Shown piece after piece: positions 10,797-15,233 of a DNA stretch of 64,000 bases. The DNA is taken from NCBI RefSeq assembly GCF_024223415.1, contig NZ_CP100500.1; one strand, 5' to 3'. The notes under the pieces are model-generated. The model was not told the origin of the DNA and ran no database searches. It worked only from the letters and a program-made list of their open reading frames with translations. Made by a program: the position numbers and the translations under genes. Origin of the DNA: Escherichia coli (GTDB lineage: Bacteria > Pseudomonadota > Gammaproteobacteria > Enterobacterales > Enterobacteriaceae). The stretch's first letter is position 1. Each line of letters opens with the position of its first letter.

Positions 10797-10873
10797 TGGA
10801 CCGCCACCGGGGACTCGAACCTCGCACACTCAACTTAAAGGGTTGACGCTCTTTCCTGATGAGCTAGTGGCGG
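10797..10873 (-). tRNA. tRNA, identity uncertain (anticodon loop CCUUUAA reads UUU but has non-canonical C33; Lys- or Arg-like phage tRNA, possibly decayed)
   Basis: 77-nt cloverleaf: acceptor CCGCCAC/GTGGCGG, D-stem GCTC/GAGC, anticodon stem TCAAC/GTTGA, T-loop TTCGAGT, encoded CCA; 1 nt from neighbouring tRNA. Confidence 0.55.
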
Positions 10874-10874
10874 T

Positions 10875-10950
10875 TGGTGGCCCTTGCTGGATTTGAACCA
10901 GCGACCTGGCGATTATGAGTCGCTCGCTCTCACCACTGAGCTAAAGGGCC
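10875..10950 (-). tRNA. tRNA-Ile2-like (anticodon CAU; Met/Ile-lysidine type), phage-borne
   Basis: GGCCCTTTAGCTCAGTGGTGAGAGCGAGCGACTCATAATCGCCAGGTCGCTGGTTCAAATCCAGCAAGGGCCACCA closely resembles E. coli minor tRNA-Ile (CAU); between Q and lysis genes as in Stx-phage ileZ-argN-argO clusters. Confidence 0.8.
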
Positions 10951-12212: not shown

Positions 12213-13268
12213 TCATGCTTTCCACTTCAGGACACCCGAATTTCTCGCGTGCATTAAAAAACGAATCAGCAACAACAGCTGGCTGCCGTGTTTTTCTTCA
12301 AAATCTTTTACCCCGGCGTGCAGTTCGTTATGACATTTACGGCACAGCGGAATAACAAACAAATCATCAGCCTTTGTTCCCATCCCTCCCAGTCCATGAC
12401 CAATGATGTGATGCGGATCATCTGCCTGATTACCGCACGTCATGCATTTCTGCGTTTTTACCCAGCGCGTGTATACAGGCATCTCTTCCCGTTGTGGTTT
12501 CTGGCGCTGGAGATACTGAGCCGGTGACTCCGGATCAACGGCAATGCTGACCACCGCCTCTTCCTGTGGCGGGTTTTGCTGGTGGGCGTGAGGCAGCGGC
12601 GCAAGATTTTTTGTGCGCTGCTTCAGTATGCTGGTGGCGGTCTGCTCTCCCGGTACGATGTCGCTTTCACGGTACATTGAGCGGATTTTTTCCGCACGCA
12701 ACCCCAGCGAACGACGTAATACCGCTTCCGGTAGCGCGTCCGCCACCTGATTGCGGACCGCCCACCAGGATAATTCAGCCAGAGATAATTCACGCTCCTG
12801 CGTACCGCTTATTGCGTGACCGATGACGTCAATCATCCATGCTGACAGGTTTTGATGAGCAAGTTGCTCGAGTGATTCGGATGTCTGGTCACGCAGCTGG
12901 TTGTCGCAGTGCCAGCACAACACCATCGCGCCGGTACCGTAACGATGTATGACGATTTCACTGTGATGATAGTCACCATGAGGCCACTGGCAGGATTTGA
13001 CATGACGCAACAGCCAGTCAGACAGTGCCCCAGCGCCGCCAACAGCACGAATCACCCGATCATCGCTGAAAAATGGCAGTAATGATTTATCCTCCGCCAG
13101 CGGCTGGCGAACGGCAGGGACGACTCCGGATGGCAGGCCGCACGTACTTTTCGGTTCCGGCTCCACCAGCACTCGAGGATTGTGAAATACCGGCATGGAT
13201 TCACGACCGGGCTTAAGGACCACCAGCCCGAGTTCCGGTACCAGAACAGGTCGAAGTAATACCCGCAC
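12213..13268 (-). CDS. DUF968-like phage protein with C-terminal HNH/zinc-finger-like motif
   Basis: 351 aa (GTG start; alternative ATG at 13196); C-terminus CMTCGNQADDPHHIIGHGLGGMG...PLCRKCHNELH. Confidence 0.55.
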   Translation of the reverse strand: MRVLLRPVLVPELGLVVLKPGRESMPVFHNPRVLVEPEPKSTCGLPSGVVPAVRQPLAEDKSLLPFFSDDRVIRAVGGAGALSDWLLRHVKSCQWPHGDYHHSEIVIHRYGTGAMVLCWHCDNQLRDQTSESLEQLAHQNLSAWMIDVIGHAISGTQERELSLAELSWWAVRNQVADALPEAVLRRSLGLRAEKIRSMYRESDIVPGEQTATSILKQRTKNLAPLPHAHQQNPPQEEAVVSIAVDPESPAQYLQRQKPQREEMPVYTRWVKTQKCMTCGNQADDPHHIIGHGLGGMGTKADDLFVIPLCRKCHNELHAGVKDFEEKHGSQLLLLIRFLMHARNSGVLKWKA

Positions 13269-13269
13269 G

Positions 13270-13542
13270 TTACCTCCAGATCCGTTGCTGGAATGTGCGG
13301 GACGGACGCGGTGGGCGTTCGGAGTAAGGAAGCCTGACGGAGATTATCCAGTGACGATAATCGAGGCTGAGGGCTTTCTTAATCTCGTATCCGTGTCTGC
13401 GGTAACACTGAATCAGCCATTCGGCCTGTTCTTCAGTGCATGGAGGGTGTTGGTACCAGTCGGTTTTAAATACGCGAGAACGCCGCCCATGCCTGCTGGC
13501 ACGAACGGCATCAGAATTGTGATTTTTGGTATTGTGCGCCAT
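13270..13542 (-). CDS. Hypothetical nin-region protein (90 aa from ATG 13542)
   Basis: ORF only; ORF-track start at 13623 is TTG. Confidence 0.4.
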   Translation of the reverse strand: MAHNTKNHNSDAVRASRHGRRSRVFKTDWYQHPPCTEEQAEWLIQCYRRHGYEIKKALSLDYRHWIISVRLPYSERPPRPSRTFQQRIWR

Positions 13543-13734
13543 TTGTTTTCTCTGCTGGCGCAGCAGGTGCCAGTTGTTCAGGCTAGCGTGCAGATTGTAA
13601 ACCAGAATTCCCGGAAAAAACAAAACTCGCTCAGGCTGGTATGCTAATCATCACAGTCATGTTTGATGGGGTTAGCTCACATTGGGTGAGGGTTCACGGC
13701 GTTTTCACTAATAATTTACCGTCCCCGCTATACA

Positions 13735-14127
13735 CTACTGCCCAGTTCTAACGAAGTTTTTGAAGGAAACAACTGCCTGATAGAGGTTTGGTTGACAGCC
13801 AAACATATTATCGCAAAAAGGCTGGATGAAAATTCTTGAGGATCCATCTTCATTTGGCATTTTACTCACTTGATAAGCGAGGAGTGGACTATTTGGTGAG
13901 GGGTTATAAGTGGAAATTAGCGTGTCTGTCGCCGTTTGAATTTTCCATGCGGAATTATTAGCCAACCAGAATTGCGCGCGTTTCCAATAAAAGTCACATT
14001 GCTTTTCATCTTTACATGTTAGTGGCTTCATTGCTTCTGCTTTCAACGCAGGATCGACCTTTGCTGCACACCCTCCCAACATTACTGTTGCAATCATTAC
14101 ACCTGCAACTAAAACAAGTTTCTTCAT
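13735..14127 (-). CDS. Hypothetical outer-membrane lipoprotein (moron), 130 aa
   Basis: MKKLVLVAGVMIATVMLGGC signal with lipobox LGGC, +2 Ala; four further Cys; visibly AT-rich segment bounded by hok terminator region. Confidence 0.6.
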   Translation of the reverse strand: MKKLVLVAGVMIATVMLGGCAAKVDPALKAEAMKPLTCKDEKQCDFYWKRAQFWLANNSAWKIQTATDTLISTYNPSPNSPLLAYQVSKMPNEDGSSRIFIQPFCDNMFGCQPNLYQAVVSFKNFVRTGQ

Positions 14128-14270
14128 CTCCCTGCCCCCATCAGTAAAAGTTCGGTTCTCTGATAACTAGAGTTAATCAACGGAAAAACGCCGAAGCGGG
14201 TTAAGTGTGGGTGCATTGAGGATGCCTGACTCATCAGAGGTGGCGAGGGATTTCTCCCTCGCCTGGTCTC

Positions 14271-14426
14271 TTACTCCTCAGGTTCGTAAGCTGTGAAGAC
14301 AGCGACCTCCGTCTGGCCGGTTCGGATTCGTACCTCGCAGAGGTCTTTCCTCGTTACCAGTGCCGTCACAATGACGGTAATACAGATGACGATCAGGGCG
14401 ACTAACATCGCCTTTTGCTGCTTCAT
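14271..14426 (-). CDS. Hok/Gef-family type I toxin (HokD/RelF-like)
   Basis: 51 aa MKQQKAMLVALIVICITVIVTALVTRKDLCEVRIRTGQTEVAVFTAYEPEE matches Hok family; in-frame upstream ATG at 14483 also present. Confidence 0.8.
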   Translation of the reverse strand: MKQQKAMLVALIVICITVIVTALVTRKDLCEVRIRTGQTEVAVFTAYEPEE

Positions 14427-14637
14427 AGCCTGCTTCTCCTTGCCTTTCGGCACGTAAGAGGCTAACCTAGATTTGCCGTTCATAGATTGAGCCTCAGATT
14501 AATGTTAAGCGTCTTGCCGGACGCGTAATGTTAACTGGGGCTTTTCTCTATCTGCCTTTTGGGGTTCATGCCTGAGACAGATAGCCTCAAGCACCCGCTG
14601 CAATTCTACTTAACTCTCCTTTTCCCGCAAACCATTT
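14427..14637 (-). promoter_or_regulatory. hok mRNA leader; expected location of antisense Sok-like RNA (plus strand) and mok-like reading frame
   Basis: By analogy with hok/sok loci; GGCGAGGGA-TTTC-TCCCTCGCC hairpin just 3-prime of hok at 14233-14254; exact sok ends not determinable. Confidence 0.3.
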
Positions 14638-14721
14638 TTATCCCCAGCGGCAAATCGAATACACCACCAGCGCCACCGCCATCGCAATTCCTACCGTTGT
14701 GAATGCTTCAGGCCAGGTCAT
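14638..14721 (-). CDS. Small hydrophobic peptide (27 aa, MTWPEAFTTVGIAMAVALVVYSICRWG), translationally coupled to upstream gene
   Basis: ATG overlaps TGA of 14718-15233 gene (ATGA); single predicted TM helix; not in ORF track (under 60 aa). Confidence 0.35.
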   Translation of the reverse strand: MTWPEAFTTVGIAMAVALVVYSICRWG

Positions 14722-15233
14722 CGTAAAATATCCTCCGCGCTTATCAGTCCATTTCGTTTCAGGTAATCCATCGCCTTCTCCGGTAATTTGCAGTCCGGCT
14801 GAGCTTTTTTCAGTTGACTGACCAGTCGTTTAACCCACATTGTTAATTCGCCAACCTGATTACTGGATGCCAGTGGATTGTCGGCTTTACCCAGAATGAC
14901 AGCACAGCAGGCCTCTTTGAGCACCCAATCAACAGCATCTTTCCATGCTCCTGTTTCGACTGGTGGATTCTCACGCTTTACCTGTTCATAAAAGCGCACG
15001 GCTTTAACCAGTCCTTCTGATGTCACCGGGACTGACGGGGCAGTGAATAAGGCCTGAATCTCATAGCTCGGCCTGTCGTTGCAATCCTCTTTTGTCGGTA
15101 CATATTTCCAGTCACCAACCCACATCTTCTCCTGAAAGTCCGTAACGCCTTTTTTCACGTAGCGATATCGCCATACAACTGGTTTTGCCTGCCCTGCCGT
15201 TTCATGCCCTTCCTGATAATTAATCTCGCTCAT
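14718..15233 (-). CDS. Hypothetical protein (171 aa)
   Basis: ATG start overlaps stop of upstream small acidic ORF (ATGA); no homolog recognised. Confidence 0.55.
   Translation of the reverse strand: MSEINYQEGHETAGQAKPVVWRYRYVKKGVTDFQEKMWVGDWKYVPTKEDCNDRPSYEIQALFTAPSVPVTSEGLVKAVRFYEQVKRENPPVETGAWKDAVDWVLKEACCAVILGKADNPLASSNQVGELTMWVKRLVSQLKKAQPDCKLPEKAMDYLKRNGLISAEDILR

What the first reader, a model, noticed from the sequence alone, without database searches (positions are those of the whole stretch)
13735..14127. AT-rich moron encoding an outer-membrane-type lipoprotein with four extra cysteines
A 130-aa ORF has a classical lipoprotein signal (lipobox LGGC, +2 Ala, so OM-sorted by the Lol rule) and four further Cys (C38, C44, C105, C111) that could form two disulfides. 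It lies in a visibly AT-rich segment right after the hok terminator region, so it is probably independently transcribed. Prophage lipoproteins in this kind of slot often mediate exclusion or serum resistance; no homolog recognised.
Basis: inference. Interest (0 to 1): 0.45.

Follow-up and report, generated by a model that had tools for sequence, protein, structure and literature searches.

The report
Uncharacterised prophage outer-membrane lipoprotein cassette
A real, conserved 130-residue lipoprotein gene sits as optional cargo in an E. coli prophage; it belongs to a large unnamed family that temperate phages repeatedly place next to their repressor or their receptor-binding tail genes, so it most likely blocks entry of other phages, but this has not been tested.

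Summary
Window 13735-14127 (minus strand) encodes a 130-aa lipoprotein precursor with lipobox LGGC (Cys20), Ala at +2, and Cys38, 44, 105 and 111. It lies in a 562-bp cassette of 42.7% GC, against 49-51% in the flanks.

The slot between hokD and the next gene is empty, holds rem, or holds this cassette in different E. coli prophages. 254 of 5426 genomes carry the cassette.

The protein has many homologues: 956 clusters at 50% identity, with all five Cys conserved. None is characterised, and there is no Pfam, NCBIfam, PDB or PADLOC match. AlphaFold gives a confident alpha+beta fold (pLDDT 94) that resembles Flpp3, BamC-N and KA1 domains only at fold level.

Of 44 phage clusters, about 12 place the gene directly after a CI-type repressor and 9 place it inside the lambda-like K-I-J tail-tip module. 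The closest non-E. coli relatives are in the tail-tip module. Some members carry a C-terminal PDZ domain. Paraburkholderia keeps a chromosomal copy next to gshA.

Best reading (about 0.45): a periplasm-facing outer-membrane lipoprotein that blocks phage entry, working like Cor, Llp or Rtp45 but unrelated to them.

"Independently transcribed" is not supported. No promoter was found, and the cassette interrupts the hok terminator.

The parts
13735..14127 (-). ORF for the 130-aa lipoprotein precursor (ATG 14127-14125, stop 13737-13735)
   Evidence: Full-length match to PHROG 16082, E 1.4e-81. Annotated 'hypothetical protein' WP_039720016.1 in a 99.1% identical locus.
14068..14127 (-). Signal peptide II region: residues 1-19 plus the lipidated Cys20. 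The lipobox LGGC is at 14068-14079.
   Evidence: Read from the sequence. A lipobox is present in most homologues and C20 is at least 90% conserved. The weak hits to Ala_zip_lipo and Cor cover only this region.
13996..14016 (-). First Cys pair, C38-x5-C44, at the junction of strand beta1 and helix alpha1
13795..13815 (-). Second Cys pair, C105-x5-C111, after strand beta5
14135..14139 (-). GGGGG, a Shine-Dalgarno-like run 7 nt upstream of the ATG
   Evidence: Read from the sequence; inference only
13627..14188 (-). About 562-bp cargo cassette (5' spacer, ORF, 3' spacer). It is absent from 'empty' alleles and replaced by rem in alleles like K-12 Qin.
   Evidence: GC is 42.7%.
14184..14200 (-). 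Truncated hok terminator: CCCGC-UUCG-GCG followed by U5. The empty allele has the full AACCCGC-UUCG-GCGGGUU hairpin.
   Evidence: The junction CCCGCTTCGGCG plus a T-run is present in 79 of 89 E. coli-type loci.
13611..13626 (-). Displaced T-tract of the original hok terminator (GUUUUGUUUUUUCC), now at the 3' edge of the cassette with no strong hairpin before it
14271..14426 (-). hokD toxin ORF (51 aa), the upstream neighbour
14421..14596 (-). Match to the Rfam sok model RF01794, the hok/sok regulatory region
   Evidence: 112 bits, E 3.6e-26

Best explanation
[quoted passage not shown] A roughly 15-residue tether holds a compact 95-residue alpha+beta domain in the periplasm. That domain is stapled by two short disulfide-closed loops (C38-C44 and C105-C111).

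I propose that it is a phage-encoded entry-blocking (superinfection-exclusion) factor. It would bind the periplasmic face of an outer-membrane receptor, or a periplasmic step of genome delivery by lambda-like tail tips. This would prevent related phages from infecting the lysogen or the infected cell, and would keep progeny from being wasted on cell debris.

In this E. coli prophage the gene is a transplanted cassette inserted into the hok terminator. It is probably expressed by read-through from hok or from early phage transcripts.

Shown here: a real, conserved lipoprotein; the optional cassette; the family contexts; the fold. Inferred: outer-membrane location, disulfides, expression, and the exclusion function itself.
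For: (1) The protein is real and under constraint. There are 956 clusters at 50% identity, 434 of them with E<=1e-10. The lipobox Cys, four further Cys and two Trp are conserved. The AF2 model has pLDDT 94.4.

(2) It must act in the envelope, given the signal peptide II, the lipobox and the absence of Asp at +2 (Lol +2 rule from established knowledge).

(3) Distant homologues lie 15-75 bp downstream of a CI-type repressor on the same strand, divergent from the lytic operon. This holds for every phage contig looked up by protein (L006, L007, L066, L068). In the pattern-based survey, 9 clusters are confirmed by Pfam and 12 of 44 by custom HMM. This is the prophage-expressed position.

(4) Nine clusters, plus the closest non-E. 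coli relatives at 77-87% identity, lie inside the lambda-like K-I-J tail-tip/receptor-binding module. Known exclusion lipoproteins are encoded in or beside this kind of module. Examples are Llp next to the T5 RBP and the mEp Lpp genes in the structural cluster (PMC9586334, PMC11893012; the position of cor is from my own knowledge).

(5) Precedent shows that small periplasm-facing outer-membrane lipoproteins block phage entry by binding the periplasmic side of FhuA or LptDE (PMC9586334, PMC12685063).

(6) The gene is optional cargo in a variable slot, present in 254 of 5426 E. coli genomes. It is also present in an induced phage, vB_EcoS-689R5.
Against: There are no functional data for any family member. 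In this window the gene is neither repressor- nor tail-linked, and no promoter was found. About 32 Paraburkholderia, Caballeronia and Trinickia species keep a homologue in conserved non-phage synteny after gshA, which argues that the domain has a cell-intrinsic role. The mature protein is about 110 aa with a helix-grip-like fold, unlike the roughly 60-aa Llp, Rtp45 and Cor. In one pair of loci, identical lipoproteins accompany J C-termini that are only 77% identical (inconclusive). About half of the surveyed clusters have uninformative contexts.
Confidence: 0.45

Rival explanations
1. It is a lysogenic-conversion factor that benefits the host rather than the phage. Like Bor/Iss or TraT, this outer-membrane lipoprotein would alter serum resistance, adhesion or envelope robustness.
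For: It is an outer-membrane-type lipoprotein in a moron slot. A 99.1% identical locus lies in a prophage that separately encodes the lipoprotein Iss, showing that such cargo is common here.
Against: There is no Pfam hit to Lambda_Bor, TraT or any other family. Most family members come from environmental metagenome phages and from soil Burkholderiaceae, where serum resistance is irrelevant. The recurrent linkage to repressor and tail-tip genes points to a phage-centred role.
Confidence: 0.15
2. It is a periplasmic inhibitor or immunity protein against a peptidoglycan hydrolase. The target would be the NlpC/P60 tail-tip protein K of incoming phages or a lysozyme. This would be analogous to T4 Spackle, Ivy/MliC or T6SS amidase immunity lipoproteins, with the disulfide-closed loops acting as inhibitory loops.
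For: Five PDZ-bearing members start 0-136 bp after a K-like NlpC/P60+JAB gene, and three of them overlap its stop codon. Other members sit between K and I or between I and J. There are two conserved C-x5-C loops.
Confidence: 0.12
3. It is a phage-borne copy of a host housekeeping envelope lipoprotein. Its role would be cell-intrinsic, for example in outer-membrane biogenesis, in envelope redox or in binding an OmpA-like partner. Phages would carry it as a mimic or modulator, or merely as a passenger.
For: The order gshA -> family gene <- MFS transporter is conserved in about 32 Burkholderiaceae species, sometimes with an OmpA-family gene next to it. The fold resembles the outer-membrane lipoproteins BamC-N and Flpp3. 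PDZ fusions are typical of envelope quality-control proteins.
Against: Outside Burkholderiaceae, every context examined is a phage or a mobile element. E. coli carries the gene only sporadically, in 4.7% of genomes and always inside a prophage.
Confidence: 0.15
4. In this prophage it is silent or decaying cargo with no current function.
For: No promoter was detected. Frameshifted or truncated copies exist in some E. coli prophages.
Against: The ORF is intact in at least 249 genomes at 93-99% identity, and all structural residues are conserved. It is carried by an induced phage. The weakened hok terminator offers a route to expression.
Confidence: 0.05

Closest known systems
Llp (phage T5) and Rtp45 (phage Rtp) superinfection-exclusion lipoproteins
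   Same: They are phage-encoded, have a lipobox signal peptide, are anchored in the inner leaflet of the outer membrane facing the periplasm, and are encoded close to receptor-binding tail genes. They block RBP binding by binding the periplasmic side of FhuA or LptDE (PMC9586334, PMC12685063). Many relatives of the window protein occupy the same kind of genomic position.
Cor (phi80/N15/T1; PHROG 1119)
   Same: It is a prophage outer-membrane lipoprotein that excludes FhuA-dependent phages, and it is a moron-type gene.
   Different: The PHROG 1119 match (E 0.009) covers only residues 1-44, essentially the signal peptide and tether. The mature domains are unrelated.
Tail-cluster exclusion lipoproteins Lpp021/Lpp010 of mEpimmI coliphages
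   Same: These are lipoprotein genes inside the structural gene cluster of temperate coliphages. They were shown to exclude OmpA- or LamB-dependent phages (PMC11893012).
   Different: No BLAST-level similarity was found. tblastn of three diverse family members against 50,697 phage records found only two E. coli phages that carry this same cassette.
Bor / Iss (lambda) and TraT
   Same: They are prophage- or plasmid-encoded outer-membrane lipoproteins in accessory slots. iss is present elsewhere in a prophage that carries a 99.1% identical copy of this locus.
   Different: Pfam finds no similarity. The family's distribution in environmental phages does not fit a serum-resistance role.
Helix-grip / KA1-like lipoprotein domains: Flpp3 (DUF3568) and the BamC N-terminal domain
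   Different: Sequence identity is 11-15%. Foldseek gives no hit with E<=0.001, there is no profile-sequence match, and the disulfide pairs are not shared. This is fold resemblance only, not family membership.
Glo of Vibrio phage K139
   Same: It is a 137-aa exported protein encoded in the cI operon and annotated as involved in phage exclusion. Its size and position are analogous.
   Different: It is not homologous (hhalign probability 0.8%). It has a type I signal peptide rather than a lipobox.

Membership tests
Bacterial lipoproteins (signal peptidase II substrates) | Positively charged n-region, hydrophobic h-region, and a lipobox [LVI][ASTVIG][GAS]C within about the first 35 residues | tested here: met
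   MKK-LVLVAGVMIATVM-LGGC20. The Cys is at least 90% conserved and most homologues have LSGC, LAGC or a similar box.
Bacterial lipoproteins (signal peptidase II substrates) | Actual lipidation and outer-membrane localisation (no Asp at +2 implies Lol export) | not testable with these tools
   The +2 and +3 residues are Ala-Ala, so the rule predicts the outer membrane. Confirmation needs fractionation, globomycin or palmitate labelling.
Moron (independent accessory transcription unit in a phage genome) | Present or absent between otherwise collinear phages, with deviating base composition | tested here: met
   The slot is empty, holds rem, or holds this cassette. Cassette GC is 42.7% against 48.5-50.9% in the flanks.
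Moron (independent accessory transcription unit in a phage genome) | Own promoter and own terminator | tested here: inconclusive
   No sigma-70-like site on the minus strand and no terminator-like site in 13200-14800. The cassette splits the hok terminator. Consensus scans cannot exclude weak or non-canonical promoters.
PHROG 16082 (unknown function) | Full-length profile match | tested here: met
   E 1.4e-81, residues 1-130 against profile positions 1-130 of 130
Cor superinfection-exclusion protein (PHROG 1119) | Profile match over the mature domain | tested here: not met
   E 0.0091, residues 1-44 only
Bor/Iss, TraT, RcsF, Ivy/MliC/PliC (known small envelope lipoproteins or periplasmic inhibitors) | Pfam family match | tested here: not met
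Llp / Rtp45 exclusion lipoproteins | Sequence or fold similarity to the solved structures | tested here: not met
Llp / Rtp45 / Cor-type function (entry block at an outer-membrane receptor) | Expression reduces adsorption or infection by phages that use a given receptor | not testable with these tools
   Only positional evidence is available.
Known anti-phage defence systems (PADLOC-DB v2) | Match to any defence-system protein model | tested here: not met
   No families for the query or for three diverse relatives
DUF3568/Flpp3 and BamC-N helix-grip domains | Homology beyond fold level (significant sequence or profile match) | tested here: not met

The most novel reading that the evidence does not exclude
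The protein would be the E. coli representative of a large, unrecognised third structural class of phage entry-blocking lipoproteins. The class would have a helix-grip-like domain with two disulfide loops, sometimes fused to PDZ. Instead of targeting a particular variable receptor, it would target a conserved periplasmic step of genome delivery by lambda-like K-I-J tail tips, for example ejected tail-tip or tape-measure proteins or peptidoglycan crossing. That would explain why one family serves phages of many hosts, and why Burkholderiaceae have fixed a copy in the chromosome as a standing defence.
Probability: 0.15. Interest if true: 0.7.

Novelty: new variant of a known kind. Interest (0 to 1): 0.47.

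Why it matters
Prophage outer-membrane lipoproteins that block phage entry shape phage host range and the outcome of phage therapy. Only a few tiny families (Cor, Llp, Rtp45) are understood so far. This gene would open up a much larger, structurally distinct family with no Pfam entry. That family has about 1000 clusters at 50% identity across Enterobacteriaceae, Burkholderiaceae and many uncultured proteobacterial phages, and its genomic positions mark it as a candidate entry blocker. It is small, folds confidently, and can be tested in E. coli K-12 with standard phage panels. The PDZ-fused forms and the chromosomal Paraburkholderia forms offer extra handles on mechanism. As a side point, inserting cargo into the hok terminator is a neat example of a moron borrowing the transcription of a toxin-antitoxin gene.

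Tried and rejected
(1) K139 Glo, an exclusion protein in the cI operon, was tested as a homologue and rejected (hhalign probability 0.8%).

(2) Two viral-contig scans were wasted on hand-typed N-runs that were one codon or one base off. They returned almost only chance hits (diagnosed). They were redone with fixed-gap syntax, verified on the window first.

A1 returned mostly near-identical E. coli loci.

(4) 66 of the 120 genome contigs pattern hits failed the family HMM, including repeated Xanthomonadales hits. The translated stretches are out-of-frame or low-complexity chance matches and were discarded.

(5) The afdb50 fold library was unavailable. BFVD gave nothing significant. PDB Foldseek gave no hit with E<=0.001.

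(6) PADLOC gave no hit. NCBIfam gave only a signal-peptide-level hit to Ala_zip_lipo.

(7) A covariation test of lipoprotein identity against J C-terminus identity was confounded by phylogeny and by a truncated locus, so it is inconclusive.

(8) Literature searches for the accession and for tail-module or repressor-linked lipoproteins found precedents but nothing on this family.

(9) Disulfide connectivity could not be measured because model coordinates are not exposed. Local pairing is inferred from loop-length variation within each Cys pair.

Full report
**1. Observation**

The ORF is at window 13735-14127 on the minus strand. It starts with ATG and encodes 130 aa. The N-terminus MKKLVLVAGVMIATVMLGGC has a charged n-region, a hydrophobic core and the lipobox LGGC with Cys20. 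Residues +2 and +3 are Ala-Ala, so the Lol rule (established knowledge) predicts outer-membrane sorting. The other cysteines are at 38, 44, 105 and 111. A GGGGG run lies 7 nt upstream of the ATG.

The ORF has 41.5% GC (GC3 37.7%). The surrounding 562-bp cassette has 42.7%, against 50.9% and 48.5% in the flanks. The neighbourhood is the nin/Q region of a lambdoid prophage. The order on the minus strand is hok/sok (Rfam sok at 14421-14596), the lipoprotein, a 90-aa ORF, DUF968/YdfU, RusA and the Q antiterminator.

**2. It is a real protein with many relatives**

Pfam gives nothing and NCBIfam gives only a signal-peptide-level hit. PHROGs places the protein in phrog_16082, of unknown function (E 1.4e-81). 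The word-indexed search found 19 relatives in E. coli, Enterobacter, Pantoea and Phytobacter, and a profile search added Serratia.

The exhaustive phmmer search against 1.84 billion cluster representatives found 956 proteins with E<=1e-3 and 434 with E<=1e-10. Most are 120-140 aa, nearly all have a lipobox, and nearly all share the spacing C-x5-C...x60...C-x5-C. In 15 close homologues all five Cys, W48, W54, W61 and about 30 other positions are invariant. In 117 diverse members C44 and C105 are invariant, and C20, C38, W48, W54, T73 and C111 are at least 90% conserved.

Loop length varies within each Cys pair (C-x3-C to C-x7-C, and C-x5-C to C-x9-C) while the spacing between the pairs stays fixed. 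I read this as two local disulfide-closed loops.

None of the 117 members has a meaningful Pfam hit. There is no sequence match in the PDB, either with the single sequence or with the profile. PADLOC also finds nothing.

**3. Fold**

AlphaFold2 with the 117-sequence alignment gives pLDDT 94.4 and pTM 0.82. The model has a signal helix, a short tether helix (residues 26-32), and then beta1, a long helix (41-58), four antiparallel strands and a C-terminal helix (115-128).

**4. The E. coli locus is an optional cassette inserted into the hok terminator**

At least 80% of the 700-bp region is present in 249 of 5426 complete E. coli genomes, where the gene is annotated 'hypothetical protein'. With a 1.7-kb query, 254 genomes have the full arrangement. 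Many others have both flanks but either nothing in the slot (for example strain AGR6128) or rem (as in K-12 Qin).

Alignment puts the left junction inside the hok intrinsic terminator. Empty and rem alleles have AACCCGC-UUCG-GCGGGUU followed by UUGUUUUUU, which folds as a perfect 7-bp hairpin. In the window the sequence reads CCCGC-UUCG-GCG|UUUUUCCGUUGAUU..., and the original T-tract (GUUUUGUUUUUUCC) reappears at the far end of the cassette, at 13611-13626. The hairpin is not predicted to form in the cassette allele. The same junction occurs in 79 of 89 E. coli-type loci.

No sigma-70-like promoter was found on the gene's strand, and no terminator-like site was found. 'Independently transcribed' is therefore not supported. 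Expression by read-through from the constitutive hok promoter or from antiterminated early transcripts is the more economical reading. This is an inference and was not tested.

The same order, hok - lipoprotein - 92-aa ORF - YdfU - RusA - Q, occurs in the deposited phage vB_EcoS-689R5. The cassette therefore travels in particles.

**5. What the relatives' contexts say**

Phage contigs carrying distant homologues were looked up by exact protein. In every one, the gene lies immediately downstream of the repressor gene, on the same strand and divergent from the cro/cII side:
- L006: after an HTH_3 gene, 54 bp.
- L007: overlapping the upstream ORF, opposite a Phage_CII operon.
- L066/L067: after an HTH_3/HTH_19 gene, 17 bp.
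- L068/L069: after a Peptidase_S24 repressor, 15 bp.

Two other look-ups landed in a phage-tail remnant (L002) and in an integrase-flanked island with an AIPR gene (L005).

To widen the sample I scanned viral contigs for the family's Cys/Trp/Thr codon pattern, after verifying it on the window. I confirmed members with an HMM built from A2. This gave 165 hits in 50 clusters at 80% identity, six of which are gene fragments.

Pfam scans of the upstream and downstream neighbours, together with custom HMMs, gave the following for the 44 informative clusters:
- Repressor-linked: 9 clusters by Pfam and 12 by HMM have a CI-type repressor (HTH_3 and/or Peptidase_S24) directly upstream on the same strand.
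- Tail-tip-linked: 9 clusters lie inside the lambda-like tail-tip module, after K (NlpC/P60+JAB), or between K and I, or between I and J.

The tail-tip group includes the closest non-E. coli relatives (L059-L062, 77-87% identical), which sit one or two genes upstream of J. Those J proteins carry FNIII-A_GpJ and Phage_Tail_Tip domains. In these loci a second, unrelated lipoprotein gene often follows.

Members placed directly after K are 226-241 aa. Family members of about that length (226-236 aa) were shown to carry a C-terminal PDZ domain. In L157 the order is M-L-K-[family member]-I-J.

A lipobox protein cannot be a virion component. A late-expressed envelope lipoprotein beside the receptor-binding gene, or a lysogen-expressed one behind cI, matches the pattern of known exclusion lipoproteins. 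These include Llp, Rtp45 and the mEp Lpp proteins (PMC9586334, PMC12685063, PMC11893012).

**6. A complication**

It was dominated by Paraburkholderia, Caballeronia and Trinickia. There the gene lies in conserved chromosomal synteny: gshA (Glu_cys_ligase) on the same strand upstream in 32 loci, an MFS transporter convergent downstream in 27, and sometimes an OmpA-family gene in between. The domain therefore also exists as a stable host gene. This fits either a housekeeping envelope role that phages borrowed or a domesticated phage gene. I cannot tell which.

**7. Mechanism and rivals**

Best-supported reading (about 0.45): an outer-membrane-anchored, periplasm-facing, disulfide-stabilised lipoprotein that blocks phage entry. 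It would do so either by binding the periplasmic face of a receptor, as Llp and Rtp45 do, or by intercepting the ejected tail-tip or tape-measure apparatus. The PDZ forms could bind C-termini of such proteins.

Rivals:
- Host-benefit conversion factor of the Bor/Iss type (0.15).
- Inhibitor of the K-type NlpC/P60 endopeptidase or of lysozymes (0.12).
- Copy of a housekeeping envelope lipoprotein (0.15).
- Silent cargo (0.05).

A test of lipoprotein identity against J C-terminus identity was inconclusive.

**8. Comparison with known families**

The protein works most like Cor, Llp and Rtp45 in predicted topology and in the genomic logic of its relatives. It fails every membership test for those families:
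- The Cor profile matches only the signal peptide region.
- It has no Pfam match, so it is not a member of the Bor/Iss, TraT, RcsF or Ivy/MliC families.
- No sequence similarity to any PDB chain was found, and Llp and Rtp45 are not among the listed fold hits.
- K139 Glo is unrelated.
- Among 50,697 deposited phage genomes, only two E. coli phages carry any family member.

No paper mentions the accession, and none of the literature searches turned up anything on this family.

**9. Verdict**

The finding is real. The transcription claim is not supported, and no function is demonstrated.

I rate it a new variant of a known kind: an unrelated, larger structural family within the class of phage accessory lipoproteins. 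Interest is moderate (0.47). It would not surprise a specialist, but it is a large unnamed family with clear context signals that is easy to test experimentally.

Noticed in passing
window 14184-14200 and 13611-13626 (minus strand): The cargo cassette splits the hok intrinsic terminator. The hairpin's 3' arm is lost and the original T-tract ends up about 560 bp downstream. This may change hok mRNA 3'-end formation, including the fbi element and its processing, as well as expression of the cargo.
   Followed up: partly
window 10797-10873 and 10875-10950 (minus strand): tRNA-Lys(ttt) and tRNA-Met(cat) genes lie just downstream of the Q antiterminator gene of the prophage.
   Followed up: no
L059 6374-6784; L060 6332-6679; L127 4195-4539; L002 8665-9009: In tail-module loci the family gene is followed by a second, unrelated lipoprotein gene of 114-136 aa. 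The two that were scanned (L059, L127) have no Pfam or PADLOC match. This may be a two-lipoprotein unit.
   Followed up: partly
L157 2278-2994; L206, L176, L216, L203; proteins P0050, P0076, P0108, P0138, P0142, P0150: Longer family members exist. Those of 228-236 aa that were scanned carry a C-terminal PDZ domain. The 226-241-aa members in phages sit directly after the K-like NlpC/P60+JAB tail gene, and in three cases overlap its stop codon.
   Followed up: partly
L242-L358 (e.g. L281, L319, L278): In about 32 Paraburkholderia, Caballeronia and Trinickia species the family gene lies in conserved chromosomal synteny directly after gshA and before a convergent MFS transporter. An OmpA-family gene sometimes lies in between.
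   Followed up: partly
L057 6001-6393; L221 3945-4337: Some E. coli prophages carry a frameshifted copy, split into 51-aa and 76-aa ORFs. Truncated products of 87-106 aa are common in the protein database (P0015 stands for 1137 sequences).
   Followed up: no
L066 12909-14402; L068 10996-12414: Phages that carry the family gene behind cI also encode reverse transcriptases, with a bAvd gene in L066. This suggests diversity-generating retroelements.
   Followed up: no
L061 10710-10934: A further small lipoprotein ORF (74 aa, MRAILLMVTFFLISGC...) lies downstream of J and its accessory genes, in the classic Cor-like position.
   Followed up: no
window 13270-13542 (minus strand); L361 4190-4468: The 90-aa ORF next to the slot is annotated 'toxin to Rem' in phage vB_EcoS-689R5. 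rem occupies the same slot in alleles like K-12 Qin. The relationship between the two was not examined.
   Followed up: no
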